In this document: positions 14,249 through 63,842 of the stretch, in pieces
Position numbering within the stretch: position 1 is the first letter of the stretch
Layout: each line of letters begins with the position of its first letter
From: a virus
Length of the DNA stretch: 64,000 bases
Direction: 5' to 3' (one strand)
Virus record (IMG/VR): IMGVR_UViG_3300045988_067909
Translations under genes and position numbers: made by a program
Notes under the pieces: generated by a model
Told to the model about the DNA's origin: nothing
What the model saw: only the letters and a program-made list of their open reading frames with translations
The model's database searches: none

Positions 14249-14300
14249 AAGGCTAGAGGAATTTCCTCTAGCCTTAATCTATTTTATTTTTTTTTATTCA
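14249..14300. terminator. bidirectional terminator between convergent genes
   Basis: Hairpin aaggctagaggaatttcctctagcctt flanked by an A-run on one side and a T-run on the other. Convergent CDS ends at 14242 and 14294. Confidence 0.5.
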
Positions 14301-16214: not shown

Positions 16215-16279
16215 TATCCTCCTTGATTTTATTAAGATGTTTCCGTGAAACACTTTAATAAGCCAAGGAGGAATAAGCA

Positions 16280-20944: not shown

Positions 20945-21300
20945 ACACAAAAAATAATACATGGGTAGAGAGGATGCCCTACCCATGTATATCTTTATCT
21001 ATACACCATATCTATGATATAGTCGCATGCGCCATAGTGGCACCATATGCTCTATTGGTGTATCTTTATCTGGTAAATGTTCACCAGACTCAGTACCAAC
21101 AGGTATAGATTCAGATGCTAGTCTTCTAGCTTCGAGCTCAGGAATCTGAGCGCAAAGCGAGAGGAGAAACTCTCTGCTCATAGGGGATTCACCTCCTTAT
21201 GACAAGTAGACATAAGTCTACAAGTGTATGGGTAAATTTAGATACGGCTATTGGTACTAGCTGTATCTACCATACACATTTATAGTATACAATCGTAAAA
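20945..21300 (-). repeat. copy 1 of a ~350-bp repeated cassette (promoter, structured leader, 60-aa ORF, terminator)
   Basis: High nucleotide identity to 21305-21715, and in inverted orientation to 47900-48290. Contains terminator catgggtag...ctacccatg and leader hairpins. Confidence 0.6.
20999..21181 (-). CDS. conserved small protein, cassette copy 1 (60 aa)
   Basis: MSREFLLSLCAQIPELEARRLASESIPVGTESGEHLPDKDTPIEHMVPLWRMRLYHRYGV. RBS aaggaggtgaatcccctATG. Paralogues at 21365-21547 and 48031-48228. Confidence 0.55.
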   Translation of the reverse strand: MSREFLLSLCAQIPELEARRLASESIPVGTESGEHLPDKDTPIEHMVPLWRMRLYHRYGV

Positions 21301-21304
21301 CAGT

Positions 21305-21715
21305 TTACATATAAAAAATAATACATGGGTAAGTGGGGATACACCTACCCATGATTATCTTTATCTATACCCCATATTTATGGTATAGTCGCATGCGCCA
21401 TAGTGGCACCATGTGAACTATTGGGGTATCTTTGTCTGGCATCCGTTCACCAGATACAGTACCTACTGGTATGGTTTCGGATGCCAGTCTTCTCGCTTCG
21501 AGCTCAGGGTTCTGAGCACAAAGAGAAAGAAGGACATCTCTTGTCATAGGGATTCACCTCCTTATGACTTATGGGTTATAGTCCCATAAGTGTATGGTTA
21601 TATTTAGATACAGCTACTACTAATAGCTGTATCTACCATACACGTTTATAGTATACAATCGTAAAACAGTTTACATACAGAAACTCCCATATAGGCAATG
21701 CCTATATGGGACTTC
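21305..21715 (-). repeat. copy 2 of the repeated cassette
   Basis: Tandem to copy 1. Same promoter-like TTGTATACTATAAA box, leader hairpins and terminator. One leader hairpin has a different sequence but preserved pairing. Confidence 0.6.
21365..21547 (-). CDS. conserved small protein, cassette copy 2 (60 aa)
   Basis: MTRDVLLSLCAQNPELEARRLASETIPVGTVSGERMPDKDTPIVHMVPLWRMRLYHKYGV. About 80% identical to copy 1. Confidence 0.55.
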   Translation of the reverse strand: MTRDVLLSLCAQNPELEARRLASETIPVGTVSGERMPDKDTPIVHMVPLWRMRLYHKYGV

Positions 21716-21785
21716 TTTTTAATTCTTACATACTAGGAAACAAGAAAGTATATAATACTTTGAAATTATGTAAGGAGGAAGCACT

Positions 21786-23099: not shown

Positions 23100-25328
23100 T
23101 TGGCAACTAGCGTAAATATTGTAGACGAAATTAAGAAATATGAAAGGAGATTGAAATTCCCAGAAGAGGCATTAGGTAAAGAATTGGCCGAACCTATTCC
23201 AACAGCAGTATCTGGGTCACGTAAATTATTGTATTCAACACAGGCCGATCAAGTTATGTCTTTGAACACACCTGAAGTGCCGTTCTTACAGACAGGCTAT
23301 GAGAATGAGTTTGGACATAAGTCCACATCATTCAAACAATATCATGGTGATGATTTAGTTATACTAGATAAAGTCGATAAGTTTAACTGGATCCCTAATC
23401 ACCATTATTTTCTACTCACATACAATGCTAATAAGAATATCATTGATGCTGTAGAACGATGCTCATACTTACATATTACAGAAAGCTATGGGTATGACCA
23501 AAATACTAAGTACTTAGACTCCCTAGGTATTGGTAGTAAAATCCGTACAGGTGACATCTATCTCAAATCCAAAGGGTTTGATGAGTATAATAACCGTATG
23601 GATGGTGTAAATCTATTAGTTACTTATGCCGCTATCTCAGATACTACAGAAGATGCTATTGTATTATCTGAAAGCTGTGCTAAGAGATTAAGTTCTCCAT
23701 TGTATCATAAAGTCCAAATCATGGTCAATGAGAATGATATCATGCTCAATCTATATGGTAATGAAACCATTTATAAAGTTATGCCTGATATCGGAGAAGA
23801 AGTATCCAATAGTCTTCTATTGGCTACAAGACGTGAGAATAAACAAGAATCCTTGTTCTCTCAAGTATATTCCAGACTTATGGATATTAATATGAATGAC
23901 AATAAGATTACTGCTACAGGTACTGTAGTTGATGTCAATGTCATTACTAATAATCCAGATATGATGGAATCATCCAACTATACTACACAGCTTAGAACGT
24001 ATTGGAAAGAATCTATTCGATTCTCCCAAGAGCTTGTAGATAAAGTGGATATGTACAAAGATCGTTATCCTAATGCTAAGATTGGATACGAACTACAAGT
24101 ACTTTATTCTAGAGCAAAGAGCTTATTAGATGGAGAGAAGTTCTCTCTTGATGGTAAGAAAGCTTTCTCTAATATCTTCCTTGAAGTTGTGGTACGTGAA
24201 AACAATGAACTACATATCGGGGATAAGATTACTAACCGTTATGGTGGTAAAGGTGTTATTAGCCGTATACTTCCAGACGAAGAAATGTTTGAGACTATTG
24301 ATGGACGTAGAGTAGAAATGATCTATAACCAAGGTACTTCTACTAACCGTCTTAATCCAGCTCAGATATTTGAAACAGAAATAAATGCAGCATCTGCCAA
24401 ACTTCTAAGATACTTACCTATGGAAACACCATATGAGGTAAATCAATCATTAGAACGTATTGCTACATTTATGAGTATCTTCACTCTAATGCAAGCTAAT
24501 GCATTCAGGGAATATGTCTATGCCTTGAATGATGATAGCAAGTTAGATTTACTTAAGTCTATGAAGAACGATGGATGTATAATTCTATCAGTATCTCCAA
24601 TACAAGAAAACATTGACCTAGATAAACTAGTAGCTATGTATGAGTTATTCCCTGAATGTGAGATTGATTATGCTTATTGTCAATTACTTGATAGTAATGG
24701 TAATCCTCGTAAGGTAAGAACTCAACGTCCTTTACTAGTGGGTCATCAATACATTGTAAGACTTAAACAGTATGCAGAAGATAAGTTCTCTGTAACTTCA
24801 TTGTCTGCTACAAACTCTAGAAATGAAAATAGTCGTAATAAGAACCCAGGTGAGGGTGGACATAGATTTCCTAATACTCCAGTACGTTGGGGTGTAATGG
24901 AAACATCTGCTATGCAACACATTGGTTCTTGGTTCAATGCTATTATGCTTCTAGTATATAGTACGTCTCCACATGCAAGACGTAAAGCTAAGAATCTATT
25001 AACAGATTCACCATTCAATATCGACGTTAAAGTTGATAGTGAATCTAAATCTAGATCTGTAGAAGTACTTAATGTATATCTACGGACTATAGGCTTAAGG
25101 ATTAGATTTGATAAATATAAGAAAGTGATTAAGAGTATATTTGCTCTTCCATCTTCTATCCCACATATGTTTATCGAAGTTCCTGATGCTGATCGTAAAC
25201 CTACAATTGAAATGGTGGATGATAAGAAAGGGTTTAAGATTCCACAAATCATCTTCAAAGGTGATGACCCTAAACCAAATATGTTTATCAACCCACCTAA
25301 AGAGGAAGAAGAACCTCAGAAGGAGTAA
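23100..25328 (+). CDS. multisubunit RNA polymerase beta subunit, C-terminal part (split rpoB homologue)
   Basis: [24 protein letters not shown] matches RpoB [41 protein letters not shown]...[11 protein letters not shown] matches RpoB [20 protein letters not shown]...VLNPLG...[24 protein letters not shown] matches [13 protein letters not shown]. Confidence 0.8.
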   Translation: [742 protein letters not shown]

Positions 25329-28401: not shown

Positions 28402-29067
28402 ATGAAGCGTGCAATATGTGAAGGGAAACTACTTAGTCTGTATGATATAAATACGGACTATAATGATTACTTTATGAATGATACATCATTCATGGGGTAT
28501 ATTGATGAGGGAACTGGTATTATTTATCCTAGCACAACTCAAACTTACATAAGTAAGAATCCAGGTAAAGCTGGATTCTATAAGCATGGTCCATTCTTAA
28601 AGTTTATCGAACCATCTGATGAAGAGAGAGATAACTTTACTTTTGATAAATTGGAACATGTGGATTGGGATAATACATCTAGTATTAGTGACGTAGTAGC
28701 TAAGTCTAAAGAGGCATTCTCTTTGGACAATAGATTACTTAGTAACGTCACACCAGACAATATCTTTGCACCACCAATTCATTCTGATGACTCTCCAGAA
28801 ATGGTTGGTATGAAAACAGCTATTGCAAAGAAGAAGATTGACTTAGACTTATATGGATATCGTTTTGGTGAGAACTTCAATAATGATAAACGTATATTTG
28901 ATAAGCCATCTATGACTTTAAATAAGTTAGTGACTATCTGTGATAAGACAGATATAGACGCTTATCTCATTCTCAAAGACAAGGATGGGGATATCCCTAA
29001 CCCTATGGGAGAAGAGATAGTAGTAAAACTAACTAATGGAACGGAAGAGGAGGGTAACGATGAATAA
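28402..29067 (+). CDS. hypothetical protein
   Basis: 221-aa ORF whose stop overlaps the next gene's start. Confidence 0.45.
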   Translation: MKRAICEGKLLSLYDINTDYNDYFMNDTSFMGYIDEGTGIIYPSTTQTYISKNPGKAGFYKHGPFLKFIEPSDEERDNFTFDKLEHVDWDNTSSISDVVAKSKEAFSLDNRLLSNVTPDNIFAPPIHSDDSPEMVGMKTAIAKKKIDLDLYGYRFGENFNNDKRIFDKPSMTLNKLVTICDKTDIDAYLILKDKDGDIPNPMGEEIVVKLTNGTEEEGNDE

Positions 29068-30814
29068 TAGTTGGCAAAGCAAGTTCATTGCCGATTATAA
29101 TGATAAGAATCGTCCTAAGTTTAATGACGTATTCTTCTCTAAATCCGATGATGCTATTATCGAAGACCTAAAAGCTATGCTTATATCTTGTCAACGTGAT
29201 AAGTATTTCACAGTCAAGATTCTAGGATTCGATACTATAGAAGACTATGATGAAGTAAACAGACTTCTCATAGAAAACAATGATAATATCACTGTACCAA
29301 TCAAAGATAGCTATCTTAAGATACTTAAGGTAACCTATTATATTGAGGTCAATGGATATAGTGATACATTTGATGTGTATATAGCAGTGCCTAGAGTATT
29401 CGAAGGTGCTTATATCATCTTAAATGGTAATACGTACTTCCCATCTTTCCAATTAGTAGATGGGAGTACTTACAATAATACATTAGCAAAATCATCTAAA
29501 GTACAAAAGATTACATTGAAGACTGTCTTTGGTGCTTTACGTATGATTCGTAATTTCTATGACTATCAGACCACTGATGGCACTGTACTTAACGGTACAG
29601 TATATTCTATCATGTCTAATGGTGCTTCTTATAAGGGTAAGAAGAATGCAGTAGATAGAAAAGTTCCAGCATTCAAATACTTATTTGCTAAGTATGGTTT
29701 ATACGAAGCATTAAGTCTATTTGGATTCGATAATACTATCTTCATTTCTAAAGAACCTTTTGAAGAAGAAGAGAATTACTATACGTTCAAATGTCAAGCC
29801 ACTACTAGCCGTATAGGTTATGTAAAAGTAGCTAAGATATTATTCGATAATGACCGTGTATATCAATCAGCAGTTATAACTATCTTAGATAATCTTCGTA
29901 GTTTGAAGACTGGATATACAGCAGAGTCATTATTCAATAAAGACTACTGGGTTATTTCTCTTGGTGCACATTTCGTTAAGAATAATATGGAATATGAGAA
30001 AGGCTTATCCGCTCTATATTCTCTAGAAGATCAATACGACATAGTCACCAAGAAGAATATCAGATTACCATATGAATATAAATCTAATATTTATATGATA
30101 CTAAGATGGATGATGGCAGAGTTCTCTAATATTCGACTTAAAGATAACACTGATGTTACCAATAAGCGTATTAGATGGTCTGAATGGATTGCGTCTCTAT
30201 ATGTAATGAAACTAAATACAGGTATGTATCGTTTAAATGATATAGCTAGACGTCTTAAATCCGATACTATAATCAAACGTTTTAGACAATGTATCGATAT
30301 CAAACCTATGTACTTAATATCTGAGTTACAAAAGAGTGGTATCAAAGGTTTCCGTAATATGGTTAATGAACGTGATGCTATATTACAATTAAAGTGGACT
30401 TTCAAAGGACCTACAGGTCCTGGTGAAACATCCAATAAGAATCTCGAGGGTAGACTTAAACGTATTTCTCCATCGCATTTAGGCATCTTGGACTTTAATA
30501 CCTCTTCACCAACTGAACCTGGTACTAGTGGTATTATGTGTCCTTTGAATCAAAGTGTATATGATGGATATACGTTTACTAGTGATGGTGAACCTAATAG
30601 CTGGGATGCATCTTTCAATGAACTTAAACAAAGTTATAGGGATGCTATTGGTGTTAAGTCCGCATTTGAATTAGCAGATGATATCGGAGCTGTTCTTGAG
30701 GGAGCAGATGACGGTAAGAATCGTGCTATCTATGAAATGTATCAAATGGGTAAATCCATAAGCCTAGCTAAACAGTCAAACTATCAACCTGGAGATCTTA
30801 TAGTCGAAGATTAA
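29060..30814 (+). CDS. multisubunit RNA polymerase beta subunit, N-terminal part (split rpoB homologue)
   Basis: Start ATG at 29060, translationally coupled to the previous gene. KWTFKGPTGPGETSNKNLEGRLKRISPSHLGILDFNTSSPTEPGTSGIMCPL parallels RpoB LSALGPGGL...[25 protein letters not shown]. Confidence 0.6.
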   Translation: MNNSWQSKFIADYNDKNRPKFNDVFFSKSDDAIIEDLKAMLISCQRDKYFTVKILGFDTIEDYDEVNRLLIENNDNITVPIKDSYLKILKVTYYIEVNGYSDTFDVYIAVPRVFEGAYIILNGNTYFPSFQLVDGSTYNNTLAKSSKVQKITLKTVFGALRMIRNFYDYQTTDGTVLNGTVYSIMSNGASYKGKKNAVDRKVPAFKYLFAKYGLYEALSLFGFDNTIFISKEPFEEEENYYTFKCQATTSRIGYVKVAKILFDNDRVYQSAVITILDNLRSLKTGYTAESLFNKDYWVISLGAHFVKNNMEYEKGLSALYSLEDQYDIVTKKNIRLPYEYKSNIYMILRWMMAEFSNIRLKDNTDVTNKRIRWSEWIASLYVMKLNTGMYRLNDIARRLKSDTIIKRFRQCIDIKPMYLISELQKSGIKGFRNMVNERDAILQLKWTFKGPTGPGETSNKNLEGRLKRISPSHLGILDFNTSSPTEPGTSGIMCPLNQSVYDGYTFTSDGEPNSWDASFNELKQSYRDAIGVKSAFELADDIGAVLEGADDGKNRAIYEMYQMGKSISLAKQSNYQPGDLIVED

Positions 30815-35839: not shown

Positions 35840-36358
35840 ATGTTAGTATCAATGATAGTTGCACATGACTTAAATAACGGTATAGGTAAAGATGGTAAGC
35901 TATTATGGTATATACCTAAAGACCTAAAACATTTTAAGAAAACAACTCTAGGTTGTACTGTAGTCATGGGTAGAAAAACCTATGAATCTCTTCCTAACGC
36001 ATTACCACATAGAGAAAATTGGATTCTCACTAATGATAAATCATATGTACCTAAACAACGATTCAATGACAAGGTTAAAGTATTTCATTCTAAAGAAGAA
36101 GTACTAGCTGAAGCTGAACGTCTTAGAAAGGCTAATATATTTATCATTGGTGGTGGAGAAATCTATAAATTATTCTTAGATGATGCTACTGATATTATAG
36201 CTACAGTGGTTAATGAGAAGCTACCAGCTGACACTTTCTTTCCTAAACTAAAACGAGGTGAATGGGAGAAAGTAAAAGTTGTAAATGAATCTGAAGTTGT
36301 AGACCGTAGACATTATAGTTTTAAGTTTGTAACTATGAAACGAAAGGAGAGAAAATAA
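35840..36358 (+). CDS. folA: dihydrofolate reductase
   Basis: N-terminus MLVSMIVAHDLNNGIGKDGKLLWYIPKDLKHFKKTTLGCTVVMGRKTYESLP is the canonical DHFR signature. 172 aa. Confidence 0.85.
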   Translation: MLVSMIVAHDLNNGIGKDGKLLWYIPKDLKHFKKTTLGCTVVMGRKTYESLPNALPHRENWILTNDKSYVPKQRFNDKVKVFHSKEEVLAEAERLRKANIFIIGGGEIYKLFLDDATDIIATVVNEKLPADTFFPKLKRGEWEKVKVVNESEVVDRRHYSFKFVTMKRKERK

Positions 36359-43849: not shown

Positions 43850-43896
43850 TAGGGTAGAGACAATGTCTCTACCCTAATCTTATTTTATTTTTTTAA
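43850..43896. terminator. bidirectional terminator
   Basis: Hairpin tagggtagagacaatgtctctaccctaatc followed by a T-run. Convergent with the minus-strand thyA gene ending at 43893. Confidence 0.5.
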
Positions 43897-44204
43897 ACAG
43901 CAACTACCATAGGGAGTTTACCCATATGGAAGTAGTTATCCACAATTACGCTATCTGGAGTAAAGTCATAGAAGTCTTGTACACTACCATTAATAACCAA
44001 TCTAGGCTCTTGTGTTGGTAGATTACCAGACTCATAACGTTTAATTTGTTCTTGTAAAGCTTCTATATGATTCTCATATATATGCATATTATTTACGATA
44101 TGAGTAAACTTACCAGGTTTAAGTTTACATACATGAGCTATCATATGAACTAGCATAGCGTATTGTGTTGTATTGAACGGGATTCCTAATCCCGTATCCC
44201 CCGA
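43893..44204 (-). CDS. thyA: thymidylate synthase, exon 2 (C-terminal part)
   Basis: SGDTGLGIPFNTTQYAMLVHMIAHVC...VAV parallels E. coli ThyA [26 protein letters not shown]...VAI. Reading frame continuous with exon 1 after intron removal. Confidence 0.8.
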   Translation of the reverse strand, partial: SGDTGLGIPFNTTQYAMLVHMIAHVCKLKPGKFTHIVNNMHIYENHIEALQEQIKRYESGNLPTQEPRLVINGSVQDFYDFTPDSVIVDNYFHMGKLPMVVAV

Positions 44205-44491
44205 CAAAGTGTTCTAGTATGGTCGTTAATCATACTACGTTCTCTTATGAACTGCTATATATTTCTATATAGATCAGACTATATCACGATCCGTCCCTGG
44301 TAGGACCCCAAACGTTTCCACCCACTTAGGTGTACTCTACTCACTTACAGATATACTGTATGCTTTCGATAGTCGTTGAACACAAATCTATTATAGATTC
44401 TTCGTAAATGATTATCGTATAAGTAAATTATACGACGTTCCATTTTTAGTAAGGTTATTCGATGTATATTACTATACAAAGGCGCCCGTTA
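44205..44491 (-). other. group I self-splicing intron (no ORF) interrupting thymidylate synthase
   Basis: The 5' exon ends in U (…CAGCGU) and the intron ends in G (…ACUUUG), as required for group I splicing. Intron RNA contains R-like GUUCAACGACUAUCG (plus coords 44363-44382, reverse complement). S-like GAUAUAGUCUGAUC (44271-44284, reverse complement) pairs with R as GACUA/UAGUC to form P7. The 287 nt are too short for a homing endonuclease. Confidence 0.8.
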
Positions 44492-44980
44492 ACGCTGGAG
44501 GAGTATGCAGTTTAATTTATCTTCTTGAACATCCCATAGTGTCTCATAAGCACATGGTTGTAGTGCCATATCTGGGAGATCTTCTATGTTCCAGAGGGTA
44601 ACTATCATACGTCTGCTATCTGGATCAGTTTTAATAGTATTGATAAGATTGTCTAGTTGATTGTATTTAGCAATCTGATATCCATAGGCTTTGCCTATAG
44701 TACCATCTTCTCTCATCCATTCATCCCATACATGACAACCCATCTTTTGTAGCTCACGTACATCATTGGATTGCATTTGCCAGATCCATAATAGTTCTTT
44801 AAGAGCAGTCTTAGCTGCTACAAACTTAGATGATAAGATAGGGAATTCTTCTTGTAAATCAAACTGCATGATTTGGTGTGGTAACTTATATGTCGGAATA
44901 CCTGTACGGTTATTACTATATGTACCGTGGTCTAAGATATTCTTTACAATATCAATATACTGCTTATCTGCGGTTCTCAT
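44492..44980 (-). CDS. thyA: thymidylate synthase, exon 1 (N-terminal part)
   Basis: [42 protein letters not shown] parallels ThyA [38 protein letters not shown]. Catalytic-Cys context [24 protein letters not shown] matches [24 protein letters not shown]. Confidence 0.85.
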
Positions 44981-47858: not shown

Positions 47859-47870
47859 GACAAAAGATAT

Positions 47871-47910
47871 CCCCATATAGGCATTGCCTATATGGGGTAT
47901 ATTATTTTTT
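47871..47910 (+). terminator. rho-independent terminator, TATAGGCATTGCCTATA hairpin family
   Basis: Hairpin ccccatataggcattgcctatatgggg followed by tatattatttttt. Confidence 0.55.
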
Positions 47911-48290
47911 ATAAGTAAACTGTTTTATGATTGCATACTATAATTGTGTATGGTAGATACAGCTAGTAACGTTAGCTGTATCTAAATATAACCATACACT
48001 TGTAGACATAAGTCTACGGGTCGAAAGGAGGTGACTCCTATGACTAGAGAACGAGAATCTATTCTCGCTATCTGTGCTCAGATTCCTGAGCTCGAAGCTA
48101 GAAGGCTAGCTTCTGAAAGCATCCCGGTTGGGACTGAATCTGGTGAAAGATTACCAGACAAAGATACTCCAATCGTCCACATGGTACCGCCATGGAGGAT
48201 GCGTCTATACCACAAATATGGGGTATAGATAAGGAGTATACATGGGTAAGGATATAGAACATTCTTACCCATGTATTATTTTTTATACTT
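47900..48290 (+). repeat. copy 3 (inverted orientation) of the repeated small-gene cassette
   Basis: Promoter-like gattgcatactataattgtgtatgg, leader hairpins agatacagctagtaacgttagctgtatct and gtagacataagtctac, ORF, and terminator catgggtaagg...cttacccatg. Matches the 20945-21715 cassettes in reverse complement. Confidence 0.6.
48031..48228 (+). CDS. conserved small protein, cassette copy 3 (65 aa)
   Basis: MTPMTRERESILAICAQIPELEARRLASESIPVGTESGERLPDKDTPIVHMVPPWRMRLYHKYGV. RBS aaaggaggtgactcctATG. Confidence 0.55.
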   Translation: MTPMTRERESILAICAQIPELEARRLASESIPVGTESGERLPDKDTPIVHMVPPWRMRLYHKYGV

Positions 48291-50613: not shown

Positions 50614-52491
50614 ATGCTTCATATATACGACCAATATTTTGATGGGTCAGACTTAACGTTACTGAACTCATTCTATATAAAATCTAAGAAAGACAAAGCT
50701 GGATGGACATCTCCATATATAGTTATGGTAGCCAGAGACAACTCTACTGGTGAGAAAGTTAGATGTGAGATAGAGAATCCAGAATATATATACTTTGTGG
50801 CTAAAGACCCACAATCAATAACTCATCATTATGATTACATTGAACGAGATAAGGTTATACCAGTTAAGTGTAATAATGGTGAGCTTCTTAAATCTATTGC
50901 AGACAATACAGGTAATATAGAATACTTCTATAATAATATCAAGTCTAGAGACTTTGGTGCTAATACTAAGTTGCATACTTGTAATACAGTATTCTTATCT
51001 GATATGGAATTATCCGATCATTATAGATTTTGGTTTAGTCGGAGATTCCCTAATGAAATTAAAGTTCCACCAACTAAAGCATATTTCGATATTGAAGTTG
51101 ATATCTCAGAGATTGCTGGGGATTTCCCAGAACCAGGTGAAGCACCTGTATCTGCAGTAACTTATATCTTTGGTAATAATATCTATACGTATATTCTTAG
51201 AGATCATCGTAATGTACTTGTAGAAGAATTTGAATTAAAGTATAGAAAAGGTGGATTAGATGGTGAATTGTTTAGTCTTATTCGTTCTACAGTTGGTGGT
51301 AATGATAGGGTTAAACACTTTGGTTTAGAGAATATGAAATGGCATGCTTTATTTTTTGATGATGAAAAGGAGCTATTACATTCTTTATTCGATAAAGTTA
51401 ATGAAGATAAACCTGATTTCATGTTAGCATGGAACATGGCGTTCGACTTGCCATATATCATTGCTCGTATAGAAGACCAATTTGGTGAGAAAGCATCTGA
51501 CTATATTTGTCATCCAGACTTCTATACTAAGGAATGCTATTACTATGTAGATGAACGTGCAGGTCAAGCATTAGCTGAACGTGGTGACTATGCACAGATA
51601 TCTTCATATACAGTATACTTAGACCAAATGATTCAGTTTGCTTCTAGACGTAAAGGACAAGCTGCTTATCAATCTAATAAGTTGAATGATATCGGTCAAC
51701 AAGTTGCTGGTGTAGCTAAGTTAGACTATCATCATATTACTAGAGATATTGGTGAGTTACCATTTAAAGACTTTAAGACATATATATTCTATAACGTAGT
51801 CGACGTTATAGTACAGGTATGTATTGAAAAAGAAACTGGTGATATTGATTACGTATACAATACTACAGTTGATACAAATACTAGATATGCTAAGGCTCAT
51901 AGACAAACTGTATATCTTAATAATCAACGTGTTAAGATATATTACAATGATGGGTTCGTTCATGGTAATAATATCAATAAGTTTAAAGAGAAACCTAAAG
52001 AGAAGTTCCCTGGTGCATTCGTAGCAGATCCTAATCTTATTAGTGATTTTGCTAAGATTAAGATTAATGACCAACCAGTCTTGCTATTCGATAACTCAGT
52101 AGACTTTGACTTTAGTTCTCTATATCCTAGTATTATTCGTGAGTTCAATCTATCAGCACCAACTCAGATTGGTATGATTAAGTTTAATAATGAAGCACTA
52201 AGTGGTGCTAAGTTCATAGAAGATATAGCTACAGATGATAGTATCACATTCTGTCATAAGTGGTTTAATATGCCTAATATAGAAGAGATGGTACATATCA
52301 TCAAGATAAACGCACCAAGAATTCAAACTAAGAAACCATTCATGGCTTATACTGATGGTATACTTGGTGAAGTTGAACCTGATACATATACAACTTTAAA
52401 CATGTTTAGACATTCTGATACAGAAACACAATCTATGTTTAAACCTAAAGAATTATCCAAAGGAGAGATTGAAGATGGCGAAAGAGTATAA
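50614..52491 (+). CDS. family B DNA polymerase, N-terminal portion (3'-5' exonuclease domain plus polymerase motif A)
   Basis: RBS taataggaggaaacaatcATG. Exo I AYFDIEVD. Exo II LAWNMAFDLPYIIAR. Exo III-like IFYNVVDVIVQ. Pol motif A DFSSLYPSII. The ORF ends before motifs B (KxxxNSxYG) and C (YGDTDS) appear. Confidence 0.75.
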   Translation: MLHIYDQYFDGSDLTLLNSFYIKSKKDKAGWTSPYIVMVARDNSTGEKVRCEIENPEYIYFVAKDPQSITHHYDYIERDKVIPVKCNNGELLKSIADNTGNIEYFYNNIKSRDFGANTKLHTCNTVFLSDMELSDHYRFWFSRRFPNEIKVPPTKAYFDIEVDISEIAGDFPEPGEAPVSAVTYIFGNNIYTYILRDHRNVLVEEFELKYRKGGLDGELFSLIRSTVGGNDRVKHFGLENMKWHALFFDDEKELLHSLFDKVNEDKPDFMLAWNMAFDLPYIIARIEDQFGEKASDYICHPDFYTKECYYYVDERAGQALAERGDYAQISSYTVYLDQMIQFASRRKGQAAYQSNKLNDIGQQVAGVAKLDYHHITRDIGELPFKDFKTYIFYNVVDVIVQVCIEKETGDIDYVYNTTVDTNTRYAKAHRQTVYLNNQRVKIYYNDGFVHGNNINKFKEKPKEKFPGAFVADPNLISDFAKIKINDQPVLLFDNSVDFDFSSLYPSIIREFNLSAPTQIGMIKFNNEALSGAKFIEDIATDDSITFCHKWFNMPNIEEMVHIIKINAPRIQTKKPFMAYTDGILGEVEPDTYTTLNMFRHSDTETQSMFKPKELSKGEIEDGERV

Positions 52492-53053
52492 CGTAGACTA
52501 TTACAATAACCTTATAAAGATGCTAAAATGTGATAGCATCTTTAATAGTGAGAATGATAATGTGCTACTTGGGTTTGGTCCTGGTATGTCTTATATGCAA
52601 ATTGTAGCACCACCATCAAATAAACCTATTGAGGGTAATGCTAATATTAATTGTCTTGATTTCAAGAACTGTATGAAACAAGAGAACTTTACATTCTTAC
52701 ATGATAACTATGAGTTTGGTCGTCAAGATATCTTAGATAAGTACTATACTATCTTGAGTTATATGGATACAAAGAACTTAGAAGTCCAATATAATAATGA
52801 AAGATTTGTAGACAAGTTCCAATATTTCTTAGATGCTAAAGCTAGTGATGGTGCTATTAAACTAGTAGTGGAAACTAAGAAAAGAGATTATGTATGTATG
52901 ATTTCTCGTGGTATCTTCCCTATCGTTAAAGGAGATAAGATGGAATTATACTTATATGATATTCCAACTACGTCTAAGTTTAAGCTATTAGTGTTTAGAC
53001 TATTCAAACGTAATGGATATATTATCGACCAAGTATTCAAATTATTATGCTAG
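52469..53053 (+). CDS. hypothetical protein overlapping the end of the polymerase gene
   Basis: 194-aa ORF in a different frame starting 23 nt before the polymerase stop. No nuclease or polymerase motif recognised. Followed by hairpin aggctatggctctctgggtcatagcct. Confidence 0.3.
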   Translation: MKMAKEYNVDYYNNLIKMLKCDSIFNSENDNVLLGFGPGMSYMQIVAPPSNKPIEGNANINCLDFKNCMKQENFTFLHDNYEFGRQDILDKYYTILSYMDTKNLEVQYNNERFVDKFQYFLDAKASDGAIKLVVETKKRDYVCMISRGIFPIVKGDKMELYLYDIPTTSKFKLLVFRLFKRNGYIIDQVFKLLC

Positions 53054-53140
53054 TAATGTATTTTAGGCTATGGCTCTCTGGGTCATAGCCTTTAAATGCT
53101 GAAACATCCTACTAATATGCTACTTTTTTCAAGGAGGTAA

Positions 53141-55429
53141 ATGATGGCTGATGATATTAAAAAAGATACAGCCGAGCAACGTGACTTATCTAAGTCTATT
53201 CTAAATATGCTCAATGGTTTGTATCGAAGAGCTTATATGACTCAACCAGATGCTAAAGATGAATTAGATGCATCGGATGCAAATATATCTGATACAGTAG
53301 AACGTATCATCTCTGACTCCAGTTATAAGACTGGGTTAAATAATATATCTACATTATATGCTAAACTATTACGTTCTCGTGGTGGTACTGCTAGTAGTGA
53401 TGATATGAACCAAATCTTTGGTAATGATATGGAGCTTAGTGGGTCTTTATATAATGCTTTCTTTAACAATAAGAATCTTAAAGACTATGATGCTGAAATC
53501 GATATGATTTGTAAGTATATGCCTAAGCTAGATGCAGCATTAAGTACGTTATTAGACAACGTATTATCTGCTGACCATTTTGCTAAAGACTATATTACAT
53601 TAGCAGAAACTAACTTCTCTATGGTTAGTAACCAAAAGACTATAGTTAATAACGTAGAGCTTATTAAGCATAAGTATAACTTAGCAGAGAAGTTCCAAGA
53701 TATTGCTTATAATGCGATGAAGTATGGTGAAGAGTTCGTATATATTATTCCATATGCTACAGCTATTACTAGACTATACAATAGTAATCAGGCTGCAGAT
53801 GTAGTTAAAGAATCTGTGGAATTTGACCAAAACTTTATTAATACTTATCAAAACCAAGATTCTCGTGATAAGATTAATTTTAATGACTTTAAAATAAACT
53901 TATCTTATTATAATGGATTACTTAACGAGTCTATTGTGGCCAATATCAAGGCAACTGAGAGACTCAAAAGTATCCAGGAGCAAAGTTTTAACGAAGCCTA
54001 TATACCTGTACTGGAGGTTATGAGTGACACGCAGAAAGCCTCTTTACAGAAAGATACAAGTATCTCTAATGCTCTTACACCTAAAGATGAATTAGACGTA
54101 AAAGACTTCTTTGAACCAACTCCAGATGGTATTACTGACCCTAATAAAGCTAAGAAGTATGGTAAAGAGATTAAAGCTGCTGGTGCTTTAATGAAAGTGC
54201 TTAAACGTGAAAATGTTGTACCTATCTATATTGATGATATCTGCTTAGGATATTACTATATCGAAGGAACTGCTAATAATTTCTTAGATAAGGATACTGC
54301 ATATCCTATGGCTGGTATTACTGATCCATTGAATAGTATGGCTATGTCTAAATCTCCAACAGCAGCGTTAAAGAACTCTGGTAATATTAATGATAATATG
54401 CTACGTGGTATTGCTGCTAAAATCTCTGGTATGATTGATGCTCAGTTCATTAAACTAAATAAAGATCTATCTAGAGAAATTTATGCTATTCTTAAATATA
54501 ATAGCATGACTCTCAAAGGAGAGAATGCATTAAACATTACATTCATCTCTCCTGATGATTTAGTTCATTGCTATTATAAATTTGATCCTGAATCTCATCG
54601 TGGTATCTCTCTATTAAATGATTCTATGATTCCAGCTAAGCTATATACTGGTATGTATATCTCTAATACGTTAGCTACTATGTCTCGTGGTTATGATAGA
54701 CGTGTATACTATGTAAAGAACTCTGGTGTAGATACTAATATTTCTCAATTACTTCTTCAAACTATGAAGCAAATCAAAATGACTAACTTTAATATTAGAC
54801 GTTTTGAGAATATGAATAACGTATTGAATATCATTGGTCAATTCAATGACTTCATTATTCCTACAAACGCTTCTGGTGAATCTCCTGTACAGTTCGAAAT
54901 CATGCAAGGACAAAACATTGACCCTCAAACTGAACTTATGCAGAAGCTTGAAGATATGGCTGTAGATGCTACTACAGTACCTGTAGAAATTGTAAATGCT
55001 AGAAACTCTCTAGACTATGCAGTACAAGCATCTATGACATCTAGTAAATTCTTAAAGACTGTAATCAGTGACCAAATCATTACTAATGCATTCTTTAGTC
55101 GTATTATGACACAGTTGTATAGAGCTGAGTACGATGATTCTAAGGCTATTATCAATGTATCCTTGCCACAACCATCTTACTTGAATACATCTAATACATC
55201 TACTATGATTAATAATATGAATGATATGGTTCAAGCTATAACTGATTCTTATTCTGACGATTTCACCGAAGAACAAAAACCATTGTTTATGGCTAATATT
55301 AAGAAAGAAATGCTACGTACGTATATCGACCAAGATATGGTAGATAGAGTGGCTAAACAAACTAAATTACAACTAGCAGCTAAAGCTACTAATGATGATG
55401 GTAGTGATGATAGCTCTGGTGGATACTAA
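53141..55429 (+). CDS. hypothetical large protein (possibly virion-associated)
   Basis: 762-aa ORF with RBS caaggaggtaaATG. No catalytic motif recognised. Acidic Ser/Gly/Asp-rich C-terminal tail. Confidence 0.45.
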   Translation: MMADDIKKDTAEQRDLSKSILNMLNGLYRRAYMTQPDAKDELDASDANISDTVERIISDSSYKTGLNNISTLYAKLLRSRGGTASSDDMNQIFGNDMELSGSLYNAFFNNKNLKDYDAEIDMICKYMPKLDAALSTLLDNVLSADHFAKDYITLAETNFSMVSNQKTIVNNVELIKHKYNLAEKFQDIAYNAMKYGEEFVYIIPYATAITRLYNSNQAADVVKESVEFDQNFINTYQNQDSRDKINFNDFKINLSYYNGLLNESIVANIKATERLKSIQEQSFNEAYIPVLEVMSDTQKASLQKDTSISNALTPKDELDVKDFFEPTPDGITDPNKAKKYGKEIKAAGALMKVLKRENVVPIYIDDICLGYYYIEGTANNFLDKDTAYPMAGITDPLNSMAMSKSPTAALKNSGNINDNMLRGIAAKISGMIDAQFIKLNKDLSREIYAILKYNSMTLKGENALNITFISPDDLVHCYYKFDPESHRGISLLNDSMIPAKLYTGMYISNTLATMSRGYDRRVYYVKNSGVDTNISQLLLQTMKQIKMTNFNIRRFENMNNVLNIIGQFNDFIIPTNASGESPVQFEIMQGQNIDPQTELMQKLEDMAVDATTVPVEIVNARNSLDYAVQASMTSSKFLKTVISDQIITNAFFSRIMTQLYRAEYDDSKAIINVSLPQPSYLNTSNTSTMINNMNDMVQAITDSYSDDFTEEQKPLFMANIKKEMLRTYIDQDMVDRVAKQTKLQLAAKATNDDGSDDSSGGY

Positions 55430-61064: not shown

Positions 61065-63842
61065 TTAGACACCTGTGCCTACTGGAGTTTCAGTGTGTTC
61101 TTCAGTTGTACCAGGAACTACTGGTGTAGCTTCATGGTTTTCTTCAGTATGTCCTTCTTCGGAAGTATGTGTTTCTTCGGATGTACCAGGAACTACCGGA
61201 GTAGCTTCATGAGTTTCTTCTGTATGACCAGCTGTTTCAGTATGAGTTTCACCTGCAACAGGAGCTGCTGGAGATTCTGTGTGTTCTTCAGTATGACCAG
61301 CTTCAGTATGAGTTTCTTCGGAAGTGTGAGCTTCTTCACCTGTAGCTACTGCAGGAGATTCAGTATGTGTTTCTTCTGTAGTACCAGGAACTACTGGAGT
61401 TTCAGTGTGTTCTTCAGTATGACCTTCTTCAGAAGTATGAGTTTCTTCACTAGTACCAGGAACTACTGGAGTTTCAGTGTGCTCTTCCGTGGAAGGAACT
61501 GCTGGAGTAGCTTCATGATGTTCTTCTGTAGTGCCAGGAACTTCAGTATGAGTTTCTTCGGTATGTCCTTCTTCAGAAGTATGAGTTTCTTCACTAGTAC
61601 CAGGAACAGCAGGAGTTACTTCATGGTGTTCTTCATTACCTACTGGTGTTTCTGTGTGTTCTTCAGTTGTACCAGGAACTACTGGAGTTTCTGTATGAGT
61701 TTCTTCAGTATGTCCTTCTTCAGAAGTGTGAGCTTCTTCACCTGTTGTAGGTACAGCTGGAGATTCTGTGTGTTCTTCTGTATTGCCAGGAACTTCAGTG
61801 TGAGTTTCTTCTGTATGTCCTTCTTCAGAAGTATGTGTTTCTTCTGTTGTGCCAGGTACTACTGGTGTAGCTTCATGGTTTTCTTCTGTATGTCCTTCGG
61901 AAGTGTGAGATTCTTCACCTGTTGTAGGTACAGCTGGTGTTTCAGTGTGTTCTTCTGTTGTGCCAGGAACTTCTGTATGTGTTTCTTCACTTGTACCAGG
62001 TACCGCAGGTGTAGTTTCATGATGTTCTTCATCACCTACTGGAGCCACAGGAGTTTCAGTGTGTTCTTCTGTAGTACCAGGTGTATGAGTTTCACCTGTA
62101 GAAGGAGTTGCTGGTGTAGGTGGTAATACAGGGTTAGTATCATCAACTGCAGCGTGAGATTCTTCACCTGGTGTAGGTACAACAGGAGTAGCTTCATGAT
62201 GTTCTTCAGTTGTACCAGGAACTACTGGAGTAGCTTCATGAGTTTCTTCTGTGTGTCCTTCTTCAGAAGTATGTGTTTCCTCTGTAGTACCAGGAACTAC
62301 TGGTGCAACAGGTGTTTCAGTATGAGTTTCACCTGTGGAAGGAACTACTGGAGTTTCAGTGTGAGTTTCTTCAGTTGTACCAGGAACTTCTGTATGAGTT
62401 TCTTCTGTTTTAGGTGGAACTACTGGTTCTACTGGTGTAATAGGTGCTACAGGAGTTTCTGTATTACCGCCAGTAGTGGTACCCTCAGTAGGAGTAGTTT
62501 CTTCTTTTCCTGGAGTTACAGTATGTGTAGTGTCATCTGTACCAGGGTGATTAGGGGTTGTATTTTCTTTTTTATCTTCAGGTTTATTAGTTACAATATC
62601 GTCTTTTGTTTCGACTTGGTCTAATACGCCATCTTTTTTAACAATCACGTTATCTTCCTCTTCTTTCTCAATAGTCTCTTTAACCCAAACTTCTTTAGGT
62701 GGTAATACAAGTCCTTCAAGAACCCAATTACCTTTAGTGATTAAATCATTAGCTAGTCTAGCTACGTCTTTAGGACATTCTGTATTTTTAGGGAAAGCAA
62801 TATGTTTATCTTTTACATCAGGAGATAAAGCATTAATGATATTAGTTACAGTTTTATCTGTAATCTTACTAGAATCAGCTAACCAAAGATCTGTTTTAAG
62901 ACCTTTAGCTGGAGTTAATTCAATATCTTTAAGCTCTTTACATCCTGCAAATAACACATCAGCAGTCTCTAACTTAGTTACATCCAATTTTACAGACTCA
63001 AGTTTCTCACATTGATAGAAAATACCATCAGCAAAACGAAGGTCTGTAGATCCACTTAGATCTACAGAAGTGAGTTCTTTGTTATTATAAAACATATCAT
63101 TTGCTGAAGTGAGTTTACCGATGTTTTCTAATTTAACATTAGCAAGTTTACGGCACTCTCTAAACATTGAGTTTGCAGATACTAGATTAGTAGCATCTAA
63201 TGTACCAGCATCAGCTAATTCATAGCATAATGCAAACATATTGTCAGCTACAATAGTATTCTTAGTATCCAAAGGACGAGGTAACAAGTCTAGCTCTTTA
63301 CTAATGATAGGGAACTTACGATCCATGAAGTTGTAAGCATCATTAGGTACTTTGATAGCTACACCATCATTTAAGAAATCGTAATTTGCTTTAGAGAATT
63401 GTAATCTACGAAGTTTGGTAATATCAATAGATACAACTCTAGAATCATAGTCCATAGAGCAATCAAACTGGATAACTACAGTCGGATCTTCCATGTCCAT
63501 TTTGTTTAGGTTATAAGTAAATGGTGCACGTGTATTGTGCTTTAAGAATTCAAAACATTTAACACGGCCACTTAATTTAACCAATCTGCCATCTTTCACA
63601 TAGTCTATATCCCATAAAGTCGGAGACCCTGCCTCAAGATAGCAAGCATAGCAATGCTCAGGTGTCGCATATTGAAATCGAACAAGCAGTGCTTGTTTGA
63701 TCTCATGTGTTACATCAATGAGTTCAACCCGAGGACATTGGTATCCTCGGGTGTACTCAGCATCATATACTTTTACAAAAGGCATATCTCTTGTAGGATC
63801 GACTTCTAGGAACTTAGGACCATTTTTAAAATAGTCTGCCAT
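61065..63842 (-). CDS. large protein with N-terminal BspA-type leucine-rich-repeat region and C-terminal ~450-aa Thr/Glu/His/Pro-rich tandem-repeat domain
   Basis: RBS taaggaggctttaATG at 63842 (minus strand). LRR-like periodic FxxCxxL motifs (NMFALCYEL, SMFRECRKL, DMFYNNKEL, GIFYQCEKL, VLFAGCKEL). C-terminus made of dozens of imperfect repeats such as GTTEETHTE(T/V)P(A/V)VP and SEEGHTEETHTE. Confidence 0.6.
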   Translation of the reverse strand: MADYFKNGPKFLEVDPTRDMPFVKVYDAEYTRGYQCPRVELIDVTHEIKQALLVRFQYATPEHCYACYLEAGSPTLWDIDYVKDGRLVKLSGRVKCFEFLKHNTRAPFTYNLNKMDMEDPTVVIQFDCSMDYDSRVVSIDITKLRRLQFSKANYDFLNDGVAIKVPNDAYNFMDRKFPIISKELDLLPRPLDTKNTIVADNMFALCYELADAGTLDATNLVSANSMFRECRKLANVKLENIGKLTSANDMFYNNKELTSVDLSGSTDLRFADGIFYQCEKLESVKLDVTKLETADVLFAGCKELKDIELTPAKGLKTDLWLADSSKITDKTVTNIINALSPDVKDKHIAFPKNTECPKDVARLANDLITKGNWVLEGLVLPPKEVWVKETIEKEEEDNVIVKKDGVLDQVETKDDIVTNKPEDKKENTTPNHPGTDDTTHTVTPGKEETTPTEGTTTGGNTETPVAPITPVEPVVPPKTEETHTEVPGTTEETHTETPVVPSTGETHTETPVAPVVPGTTEETHTSEEGHTEETHEATPVVPGTTEEHHEATPVVPTPGEESHAAVDDTNPVLPPTPATPSTGETHTPGTTEEHTETPVAPVGDEEHHETTPAVPGTSEETHTEVPGTTEEHTETPAVPTTGEESHTSEGHTEENHEATPVVPGTTEETHTSEEGHTEETHTEVPGNTEEHTESPAVPTTGEEAHTSEEGHTEETHTETPVVPGTTEEHTETPVGNEEHHEVTPAVPGTSEETHTSEEGHTEETHTEVPGTTEEHHEATPAVPSTEEHTETPVVPGTSEETHTSEEGHTEEHTETPVVPGTTEETHTESPAVATGEEAHTSEETHTEAGHTEEHTESPAAPVAGETHTETAGHTEETHEATPVVPGTSEETHTSEEGHTEENHEATPVVPGTTEEHTETPVGTGV
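61100..62560. repeat. coding tandem repeat array (period about 45-60 nt) inside the 61065-63842 gene
   Basis: DNA-level imperfect repeats of gtttcttc(a/g)g(a/t)agtatg(a/t)gtttcttc...accaggaactactgg. Plus-strand ORFs 61095-62126 and 62154-62624 are Cys/Phe/Ser-rich artefacts of this repeat. Confidence 0.6.

What the first reader, a model, noticed from the sequence alone, without database searches (positions are those of the whole stretch)
50614..55429. Family B DNA polymerase appears truncated or split after motif A
The 625-aa ORF contains Exo I, II, III and polymerase motif A (DFSSLYPSII). It terminates before motifs B and C, which are essential for catalysis.

The next ORF (52469-53053) overlaps the polymerase 3' end in another frame and has no recognisable motifs. 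The following 762-aa ORF also lacks a clear YGDTDS.

Possibilities:
- a genuinely split polymerase whose C-terminal half is encoded elsewhere, as in some giant phages;
- a programmed frameshift;
- an intron or intein;
- a sequencing frameshift.
Basis: partly seen in the sequence, partly recalled or inferred. Interest (0 to 1): 0.55.

Follow-up and report, generated by a model that had tools for sequence, protein, structure and literature searches.

The report
Two-gene DNA polymerase, jumbo phage
The "truncated" DNA polymerase is the N-terminal subunit of a two-gene family B polymerase already known from phiKZ- and AR9-like giant phages; its catalytic partner lies 29 kb away in the same genome, just outside the window.

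Summary
ORF 50614-52491 (625 aa) carries Exo I-III and motif A (catalytic D499) and stops 126 codons later, before motifs B and C.

It is not an artefact. The identical protein is called on 13 independent contigs. In 71 related loci the ORF ends at the same place.

No frame of the window encodes the missing half, and no Rfam family matched at E ≤ 1 in 52000-53300. This excludes a frameshift or a local intron.

The window is 100% identical to ENA contig ERZ783382 NODE_1 (260,470 bp), a jumbo phage related to Bacillus phage AR9/PBS1. On that contig a 687-aa protein (Pfam DNA_pol_B + divDNApol) lies 28.7 kb downstream on the opposite strand. That is window-equivalent 81,209-83,272, about 17 kb past the window end. 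Same-species copies of this protein carry motif B, motif C and KKxY, and no motif A.

This matches the split polymerase of phiKZ (gp82 + gp50). A 2026 cryo-EM preprint shows those two proteins form a 1:1 complex with a composite active site.

ORF 52475-53053 is a conserved gene of unknown function. The 762-aa ORF is the portal protein.

Verdict: a genuine split polymerase and a new member of a known kind. Interest is low.

The parts
50614..52491 (+). DNAP-N: the N-terminal subunit of a split family B DNA polymerase (625 aa). It holds the N-terminal domain, the 3'-5' exonuclease and the first palm strand with motif A.
   Evidence: phrog_3011 'DNA polymerase' matches over its full length (36-562 of 576 positions, 2.9e-57). 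Pfam DNA_pol_B_exo1, 1.1e-10. 33.6% identity to AR9 gp132 over 88% of the query. Residues 129-523 align with RB69 polymerase residues 81-435.
51085..51102 (+). Exo I motif FDIEVD (D159, E161)
   Evidence: Regex and RB69 alignment.
51433..51447 (+). Exo II motif NMAFD (N274-D278)
   Evidence: This region also aligns with phiKZ gp82 (BLASTP E 1e-4).
51790..51804 (+). Exo III motif YNVVD (Y393-D397)
52102..52137 (+). Polymerase motif A, DFDFSSLYPSII. The catalytic Asp D499 corresponds to RB69 D411 and phiKZ DNAP-N D562.
   Evidence: The DFD[FY][SK]S[LM]YPS core is present in all 71 related loci where the ORF was found.
52138..52488 (+). C-terminal tail (residues 509-625) after motif A. By inference it is the N-subunit share of the palm-insertion domain in which the split lies.
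   Evidence: In 71 relatives the ORF ends 120-149 codons after motif A. Similarity to relatives extends to residues 584-617 in the 52-56% identity group and to about 560 in more distant ones. In phiKZ, DNAP-N residues 589-638 form part of the palm insertion (PMC13648687).
52475..53053 (+). ORF2: a conserved 192-aa gene of unknown function that overlaps the polymerase stop by 17 nt. GGAG lies at 52462-52465.
   Evidence: Homologues sit directly downstream of DNAP-N in 72 related loci (jackhmmer). There is no Pfam, PHROG or PDB match and no similarity to AR9 g129 or Madawaska gp139. It is not part of the polymerase.
53141..55429 (+). Portal protein (762 aa). It is not a polymerase fragment.
   Evidence: BLASTP to AR9 portal gp128, E 5e-49. 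phrog_3004, 1.1e-28. Gene order matches AR9 g132...g128-g127-g126.

Best explanation
ORF 50614-52491 is the complete N-terminal subunit (DNAP-N) of a two-gene family B replicative DNA polymerase, the type found in phiKZ-related and AR9/PBS1-related jumbo phages.

DNAP-N supplies the N-terminal domain, the proofreading exonuclease and palm motif A (D499).

A separate 687-aa protein (DNAP-C) supplies the rest. It is encoded 28.7 kb downstream on the opposite strand of the same genome, at window-equivalent 81,209-83,272, outside the window. It carries the rest of the palm (motif C, TDTDS), the fingers (motif B, KRDGNATYG) and the thumb (KKNY).

Shown here: both genes exist in the same genome, their motif content is complementary, and the split position is conserved.

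Inferred from the phiKZ structure and biochemistry: the two polypeptides associate non-covalently 1:1. The DNAP-N tail and the DNAP-C N-terminus fold together into a palm-insertion domain, which builds one active site from D499 and the motif C aspartates.
For: Anatomy:
- DNAP-N has Exo I-III and motif A, and then stops.

Family placement:
- The match to phrog_3011 covers the whole profile of only 576 positions, so the family itself is this short.
[quoted passage not shown] It sits in the same gene order (polymerase, portal, tube, sheath), while AR9 gp152 is the separate catalytic subunit.

Not an artefact:
- The identical protein is called on 13 contigs from different samples.
- In 71 IMG/VR relatives the ORF stops 120-149 codons after motif A. 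None of them has motif B or C in the same ORF.

Partner gene:
- Five contigs of 170-267 kb carry a DNAP-N that is 91-99% identical to the window's. Each also carries a 687-aa DNAP-C 28-29 kb away on the opposite strand.
- One of those contigs is 97% identical in DNA to the window across the polymerase region.
- The window is 100% identical to ERZ783382 NODE_1. On that contig a gene call for a 687-aa product (PF00136 + PF20286 divDNApol) ends at NODE_1 position 208,177.
- The 285 C-terminal residues of that product that could be read are identical to the IMG/VR protein. They match DNAP-C profile positions 364-645 at E 4.7e-73.
- DNAP-C has motifs B, C and KKxY and no motif A.

Link to the characterised system:
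- phiKZ gp50 matches the DNAP-C profile at 99.8% probability.
- phiKZ gp82 + gp50 form a stable 1:1 complex, solved at 2.1 A. The complex uses D562 from the N subunit and D426 from the C subunit, and the split lies in a palm insertion (PMC13648687).
Against:
- Direct sequence similarity of DNAP-N to phiKZ gp82 is weak. BLASTP gives only local hits at Exo II (1e-4) and motif A (0.022).
- Only the 3' 858 nt of the partner gene on NODE_1 could be read. Its full length rests on the collection's gene call and on same-species contigs.
- Motif B has Ala in place of the usual Ser (NATYG).
- No RNase H-clamp (Rhc) third subunit was found among the window ORFs scanned.
Confidence: 0.93

Rival explanations
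1. Assembly or sequencing frameshift: one indel near 52470-52490 breaks a normal single-chain polymerase gene.
For: The ORF ends where a second ORF begins in another frame.
Against: - The identical 625-aa product occurs on 13 contigs from different samples and assemblers.
- The stop position is conserved in 71 relatives with 41-99% identity and in AR9.
- No frame downstream, or anywhere else in the window, resembles the C-terminal half. An HMM of 30 DNAP-C sequences, run with filters off, gives a best E-value of 0.84.
- ORF2 is a conserved gene with its own ribosome-binding site and ATG.
Confidence: 0.01
2. A programmed ribosomal frameshift or readthrough fuses the polymerase ORF to ORF2, or to downstream sequence, to complete the enzyme.
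For: There is a 17-nt overlap between the two ORFs in different frames.
Against: - ORF2 has no polymerase-like sequence.
- Among relatives, the junction varies from overlaps of 1, 17 or 65 nt to a short gap, and ORF2 lies in either of the two other frames. There is no conserved frameshift geometry (ORF2 starts there were taken as the first in-frame Met).
- The true C-terminal half is a separate gene on the other strand.
Confidence: 0.01
3. The two halves are joined after transcription or translation, by a trans-splicing intron or a split intein, to give a single-chain polymerase.
For: - This phage lineage does carry group I introns. One lies in thyA in the window. One lies inside DNAP-C of more distant relatives.
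- Split-intein PolB genes exist in other jumbo phages such as MIJ3 (PMC6892783).
Against: - No Rfam family matched at E ≤ 1 in 52000-53300.
- Pfam finds no Hint/intein domain in DNAP-N. Only PF00136 and PF20286 are recorded on DNAP-C.
- DNAP-C starts at profile position 6.
- The two genes are convergent and 28.7 kb apart.
- phiKZ homologues were purified as two separate chains in a 1:1 complex.
Confidence: 0.02
4. DNAP-N is a stand-alone proofreading exonuclease whose motif A is a relic, and DNAP-C polymerises on its own.
For: Iyer et al. 2021 described the group 1 divergent polymerase as lacking a fused exonuclease, with one encoded elsewhere in the genome that might associate with it as a standalone protein (PMC7824862).
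Against: - Motif A, including its catalytic Asp, is strictly conserved in all 71 relatives. DNAP-C has no motif A of its own.
- In phiKZ, the D562A mutation in the N subunit was used as the polymerase-dead mutant. The structure shows a composite active site.
Confidence: 0.03

Closest known systems
Pseudomonas phage phiKZ split DNA polymerase: DNAP-N (gp82, 638 aa) + DNAP-C (gp50, 731 aa). Sources: Basu et al., bioRxiv 2026 (PMC13648687); first identified by Cornelissen et al. 2012, as cited in PMC5105663.
   Same: - The split falls between motif A and motif B.
- The N subunit holds the N-terminal domain, the exonuclease and motif A. The C subunit holds the rest of the palm, the fingers and the thumb.
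- The two genes are tens of kb apart.
- DNAP-C belongs to Pfam PF20286 (divDNApol). phiKZ gp50 matches the DNAP-C profile at 99.8% probability.
   Different: - Sequence divergence is very high. DNAP-N against gp82 gives only local BLASTP hits.
- The tail after the catalytic Asp is 126 aa here, against 76 aa in phiKZ.
- DNAP-C is 687 aa here, against 731 aa.
- The genes are convergent and 28.7 kb apart here. In phiKZ they are on the same strand and about 35 kb apart.
- The Rhc subunit and the little-finger insertion were not identified here.
Bacillus phage AR9/PBS1 gp132 (exonuclease + partial catalytic domain) and gp152 (catalytic subunit). Also Yersinia phiR1-37 g170/g167 and Staphylococcus phages S6 and Madawaska.
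   Same: - These are the closest cultured relatives: 33.6% identity for DNAP-N and 28% for DNAP-C.
- The gene order is the same: polymerase, portal, tail tube, sheath.
- The genomes also encode split multisubunit RNA polymerase genes.
   Different: - AR9 DNAP-N is 554 aa. Three genes, including a DnaQ-like exonuclease, separate it from the portal. Here there is a single unrelated ORF2.
- In phiR1-37 the two halves are only about 2 kb apart.
- AR9 has dU-DNA (from the literature). This phage encodes ThyA, DHFR and dUTPase, so it probably uses thymine (inference).
Single-chain family B polymerases of T4/RB69 (gp43)
   Same: The Exo I-III and A/B/C/KKxY motif set is the same. DNAP-N residues 129-523 align with RB69 residues 81-435.
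   Different: RB69 has one 903-aa chain. Here the chain is broken after motif A. About 258 residues lie between motif A and motif B, against about 150 in RB69, which implies an insertion of roughly 110 aa that contains the split.
Intein-interrupted or split-intein PolB of jumbo phage MIJ3/PA5oct (PMC6892783)
   Same: The polymerase B coding sequence is divided between separate ORFs in a jumbo phage.
   Different: In MIJ3 the ORFs are adjacent and carry intein blocks and an HNH endonuclease. Here there is no intein domain, the genes are distant, and no splicing is expected.

Membership tests
phiKZ/AR9-type split family B DNA polymerase (group 1 jumbo phages) | The N subunit carries DEDD exonuclease motifs Exo I, II and III. 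| tested here: met
   D159/E161, N274-D278 and Y393-D397. Pfam PF03104 at 1.1e-10. Alignment to RB69.
phiKZ/AR9-type split family B DNA polymerase (group 1 jumbo phages) | The N subunit ends after motif A, which holds the catalytic Asp, and before motif B. | tested here: met
   D499 lies in DFSSLYPSII and the stop comes 126 codons later. There is no motif B or C in the ORF. The same holds in 71 relatives.
phiKZ/AR9-type split family B DNA polymerase (group 1 jumbo phages) | A separate gene in the same genome encodes motif B, motif C, KKxY and the thumb (Pfam PF20286 divDNApol), and lacks motif A. | tested here: met
   A 687-aa gene lies on ERZ783382 NODE_1, the contig the window matches 100%. 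Five same-species IMG/VR contigs carry it too. In the IMG/VR copy the motifs are K133 (B), D342-T-D344 (C) and KKNY at 462, with no motif A.
phiKZ/AR9-type split family B DNA polymerase (group 1 jumbo phages) | Sequence homology to characterised members. | tested here: met
   AR9 gp132: E 7e-66. AR9-group gp152 region (Internexus, PBS1): E 4e-56 and 8e-55. phiKZ gp50 against the DNAP-C profile: hhalign 99.8%. phiKZ gp82: weak local BLASTP matches only.
phiKZ/AR9-type split family B DNA polymerase (group 1 jumbo phages) | The two subunits form a stable 1:1 complex with a composite active site. | not testable with these tools
   No multimer prediction was available. Single-sequence AlphaFold2 models were unusable (pLDDT 32).
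phiKZ/AR9-type split family B DNA polymerase (group 1 jumbo phages) | An associated RNase H-clamp (Rhc) processivity subunit. | not tested
   No RNase H domain was found among the window ORFs scanned with Pfam. The other 196 kb of the genome was not examined.
Complete single-chain family B polymerase (Pfam PF00136 catalytic domain) | The PF00136 match reaches the gathering score and spans motifs A, B and C. | tested here: not met
   20.2 bits against a cut-off of 23. Only profile positions 62-86 of 453 are matched.
Intein-containing or split-intein polymerase | Hint/intein blocks at the C-terminus of the N piece and the N-terminus of the C piece. | tested here: not met
   Pfam finds no intein family in DNAP-N at E <= 0.1. 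DNAP-C carries only PF00136 and PF20286 and aligns with its family from position 6.
Intron-interrupted gene | A catalytic intron at the break, followed by a downstream exon. | tested here: not met
   No Rfam match at E <= 1 in 52000-53300. There is no downstream exon in any frame. The same method did detect group I introns in thyA and in a relative's DNAP-C.

The most novel reading that the evidence does not exclude
ORF2 (52475-53053) may be a clade-specific accessory subunit of the split polymerase. It could, for example, act in processivity or assembly, replacing or complementing the Rhc clamp-like subunit of phiKZ.

Three observations leave this open. ORF2 has no detectable homologue outside this clade. 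It overlaps the DNAP-N stop by 17 nt. It is retained directly downstream of DNAP-N in every relative examined. The unusually long 126-aa DNAP-N tail could be its docking site.

Nothing tested here excludes this reading, and nothing supports it beyond gene linkage.
Probability: 0.1. Interest if true: 0.45.

Novelty: new member of a known kind. Interest (0 to 1): 0.2.

Why it matters
For annotation: a polymerase ORF that stops after motif A in a phiKZ/AR9-like jumbo phage should be called a polymerase N-terminal (exonuclease) subunit. It should not be flagged as a pseudogene or an assembly error, and the divDNApol partner should be sought elsewhere in the genome.

This phage appears to be very common in public metagenomes. 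Its DNAP-C cluster has 654 members, and a neighbouring window gene appears in 1,336 index blocks. It adds an abundant, uncultivated lineage to the range over which the two-subunit polymerase is conserved.

It does not change what is already understood about the mechanism.

Tried and rejected
- **LADTDS in ORF 15024-16280 (-).** A regex hit looked like motif C. The ORF has no motif B and matches an unknown-function PHROG next to an RNA polymerase beta fragment. It does not match the DNAP-C profile.
- **ORF 29036-30814.** It matches phrog_2943 'polymerase', but its SPSHLG...TEPG motif marks it as an N-terminal fragment of the RNA polymerase beta subunit, not a DNA polymerase.
- **Partner search starting from AR9 gp152.** tblastn against the window found nothing. 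Two large protein searches, three cluster or contig look-ups and four IMG/VR scans found many divDNApol genes but not this phage's copy. Its sequence misses the automatic peptide patterns or ranks below the 80 loci kept.
- **What worked.** A hand-made degenerate DNA pattern for MKxEF-x10-KKxY hit a same-species contig. That led. Walking along NODE_1 then reached the gene directly.
- **Mistaken coordinates.** One look-up failed because I gave wrong minus-strand coordinates. It was repeated correctly.
- **ORF2 function.** Pfam, PHROGs, a profile search of PDB sequences and hhalign against the positional counterparts in AR9 and Madawaska were all negative.
- **Structure prediction.** AlphaFold2 without an alignment gave pLDDT of about 32 for both ORF2 and DNAP-N, so no fold search was run.
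- **Whole-window Rfam scan.** At gathering threshold it returned nothing, yet it missed a group I intron that a local scan found. The negative result at the polymerase junction therefore rests on the local, permissive scan.
- **Cornelissen et al. 2012.** The paper is not held in the library. It is cited only through PMC5105663.


Full report
**1. Observation**

ORF 50614-52491 (+) starts at ATG, ends at TAA (52489-52491) and encodes 625 aa. Its motifs are:

- Exo I: FDIEVD, with D159 and E161.
- Exo II: NMAFD, N274-D278.
- Exo III: YNVVD, Y393-D397.
- Motif A: DFDFSSLYPSII, where D499 aligns with RB69 D411.

These were located by regex and by alignment to RB69. Residues 129-523 align with RB69 polymerase residues 81-435, and the alignment stops just after motif A. 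Pfam finds the exonuclease domain (PF03104, 1.1e-10).

**2. What the window is**

The neighbouring genes identify a phiKZ/AR9-related jumbo phage:

- split multisubunit RNA polymerase fragments
- a tubulin/PhuZ-like protein
- topoisomerase II subunits
- NAD-dependent ligase
- SbcC
- UvsX-like recombinase
- portal, tail tube and tail sheath proteins

The closest cultured relatives of the polymerase ORF are listed below:

| Relative | Identity | E-value |
|---|---|---|
| Bacillus phages AR9/PBS1 | 33.6% over 88% of the query | 7e-66 |
| Staphylococcus jumbo phages | 28-30% (not recorded individually) | not recorded here |
| Yersinia phiR1-37 | 29.9% | not recorded here |

The gene order polymerase, small gene(s), portal, tube (-), sheath (-) is the same as AR9 g132 to g126. 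The window is 100% identical to ENA contig ERZ783382 NODE_1 (260,470 bp). Window position equals NODE_1 position minus 126,968.

**3. The short ORF is the normal state of this gene**

- phrog_3011 'DNA polymerase' is only 576 positions long, and the ORF matches it end to end.
- AR9 gp132 (554 aa) is annotated as an exonuclease plus a partial catalytic domain.
- The exact 625-aa sequence is called on 13 contigs from different samples.
- In 71 IMG/VR relatives with 41-99% identity, the ORF ends 120-149 codons after motif A. None has motif B or C in the same ORF.
- The motif A core is conserved in all of them.

A sequencing frameshift is therefore excluded.

**4. Nothing in the window completes it**

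- A profile HMM of 30 diverse C-terminal-half proteins was run against all six frames with filters off. The best E-value was 0.84.
- ORF2 (likely start ATG 52475, GGAG at 52462-52465) is a conserved gene found directly downstream of the polymerase ORF in 72 related loci.
- Among relatives, ORF2's overlap and frame relative to the polymerase vary. ORF2 has no detectable homology to anything.
- The 762-aa ORF is the portal protein.
- A permissive Rfam scan of 52000-53300 found nothing. The same kind of scan did find group I introns in thyA in the window and in a relative's polymerase gene.
- Pfam finds no intein domain.

Frameshift, intron and intein are therefore excluded at this locus.

**5. 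The other half**

AR9 encodes its catalytic subunit, gp152, separately. Searches seeded with gp152 found hundreds of divDNApol (PF20286) proteins but initially missed this phage's copy. A degenerate DNA pattern for the invariant MKxEF-x10-KKxY block hit contig IMGVR_UViG_3300006321_000011, which also carries a DNAP-N 92% identical to the window's.

Using that 687-aa protein as the query, contigs whose DNAP-N is 91-99% identical to the window's all showed the partner 28-29 kb away on the opposite strand. Four of them are tabulated below. A fifth, 3300008611_000008 (170,090 bp), shows the same arrangement at about 28.7 kb.

| IMG/VR contig | Length (bp) | DNAP-N | DNAP-C |
|---|---|---|---|
| 3300007186_000004 | 267,353 | about 102,086-103,960 (-) | 71,393-73,453 (+) |
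| 3300008747_000009 | 206,546 | 147,089-148,963 (+) | 177,775-179,835 (-) |
| 3300007123_000011 | 259,712 | 163,324-165,198 (+) | 194,216-196,273 (-) |
| 3300008275_000006 | 264,781 | 160,575-162,449 (+) | 190,343-192,403 (-) |

Contig 3300007186_000004 is 97.2% identical in DNA to the window across the polymerase region.

Walking along NODE_1 itself reached positions 188,153-209,034, which are contiguous with the window and 100% identical to it in the overlap. At the far end is a gene whose recorded product is 687 aa with PF00136 + PF20286. The 285 C-terminal residues that could be read are identical to the IMG/VR protein and match profile positions 364-645 at E 4.7e-73.

The gene therefore occupies NODE_1 208,177 to about 210,240. 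In window-equivalent coordinates that is 81,209-83,272 on the minus strand, convergent with DNAP-N and 17 kb beyond the window end.

The protein has motif B (KRDGNATYG, K133), motif C (LLTDTDSS, D342 and D344) and KKNY (462). It has no motif A. Its fingers region aligns with the poxvirus polymerase, as Iyer et al. noted for this family.

**6. Mechanism**

The motif content of the two proteins is exactly complementary. For the homologous phiKZ pair, a 2026 preprint reports the following (PMC13648687):

- gp82 (DNAP-N) and gp50 (DNAP-C) form a stable 1:1 complex with an RB69-like architecture.
- The split lies in a large palm insertion built from the tail of DNAP-N and two segments of DNAP-C.
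- The active site combines D562 from the N subunit with D426 from the C subunit.

phiKZ gp50 matches the DNAP-C profile used here at 99.8% probability. phiKZ gp82 aligns collinearly but only weakly with DNAP-N, at Exo II and at motif A.

By inference, the 625-aa and 687-aa proteins here assemble in the same way, with D499 completing the active site. About 258 residues separate motif A from motif B across the two chains, against about 150 in RB69. This is consistent with an insertion that hosts the split.

**7. Comparison and novelty**

All sequence-testable defining features of the phiKZ/AR9-type split polymerase are met. Complex formation could not be tested. The differences from the known members are of degree: a longer N-subunit tail, Ala for Ser in motif B, a different gene arrangement, and an ORF2 specific to this clade.

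The split polymerase of phiKZ-related phages has been recognised since 2012 (cited in PMC5105663) and is annotated in AR9. This is a new member of a known kind, in an abundant uncultivated lineage. Interest is low.

The one open thread is whether the tightly linked ORF2 is a polymerase accessory protein.

**8. What led nowhere**

Single-sequence AlphaFold2 models of ORF2 and DNAP-N were unusable, with pLDDT of about 32. Several database searches for the partner gene failed before the custom pattern worked. Two early candidates for a second half inside the window were excluded: the LADTDS ORF, and the phrog 'polymerase' ORF, which is an RNA polymerase beta fragment.

Noticed in passing
window 43893-44980 (-); intron at 44255-44501: The thymidylate synthase gene is in two pieces, 44489-44980 and 43893-44156, both with PF00303. 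They are separated by a group I intron (RF00028, 52.4 bits against a gathering score of 50, E 4.3e-12). This resembles the td intron of T4. The whole-window Rfam scan at gathering threshold missed it.
   Followed up: partly
L314 5965-8535 (IMGVR_UViG_3300045988_134186); also L312 and L313: In more distant relatives (DNAP-N 43-45% identical), the C-terminal polymerase gene is itself interrupted just before motif B by a group I intron (RF00028, 69.3 bits, L314 6353-6726). In those phages the polymerase coding sequence is therefore in three pieces.
   Followed up: partly
window 18726-19991 (+): A tubulin/FtsZ-family protein (Pfam Tubulin 6.4e-10; weak match to the PhuZ PHROG). PhuZ is associated with nucleus-forming phiKZ-like phages. 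Whether this phage encodes a chimallin shell protein was not checked.
   Followed up: no
window 47862-48287, 21310-21719 and 20949-21323: A repeat of about 400 nt occurs at 47.9-48.3 kb and twice, inverted, at 20.9-21.7 kb (79-81% identity). It lies in regions with only short ORFs. There was no significant Rfam match (only a 21.9-bit miRNA hit at E 0.062, far below its gathering score). Its nature is unknown.
   Followed up: partly
window 8473-8916, 35840-36358, 43893-44980: dUTPase, dihydrofolate reductase and thymidylate synthase are all encoded. This suggests thymine-containing DNA, unlike the dU-DNA of its nearest cultured relatives AR9/PBS1. This is an inference only.
   Followed up: no
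L251 17976-19318 compared with window 8473-8916: In one same-species contig (ERZ28634393) the dUTPase gene is truncated and followed by an HNH_3 endonuclease gene. In the window it is intact (147 aa). This looks like a homing-endonuclease presence/absence polymorphism.
   Followed up: no
window 61065-63842 (-): A 925-aa protein with BspA-type leucine-rich repeats (PF13306, 7.9e-8) and internal DNA repeats. It lies next to the tail genes and may be a host-recognition protein.
   Followed up: no
window 14294-15013 (-), 23100-25328 (+), 29036-30814 (+): Three separate fragments of multisubunit RNA polymerase beta subunits. The third is labelled only 'polymerase' in PHROGs and could be mistaken for the missing DNA polymerase half.
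   Followed up: partly
window 53065-53091: An inverted repeat (AGGCTATG, 11-nt loop, CATAGCCT) followed by TTT, between ORF2 and the portal gene. It is a plausible intrinsic terminator that would end the polymerase-ORF2 transcription unit.
   Followed up: no
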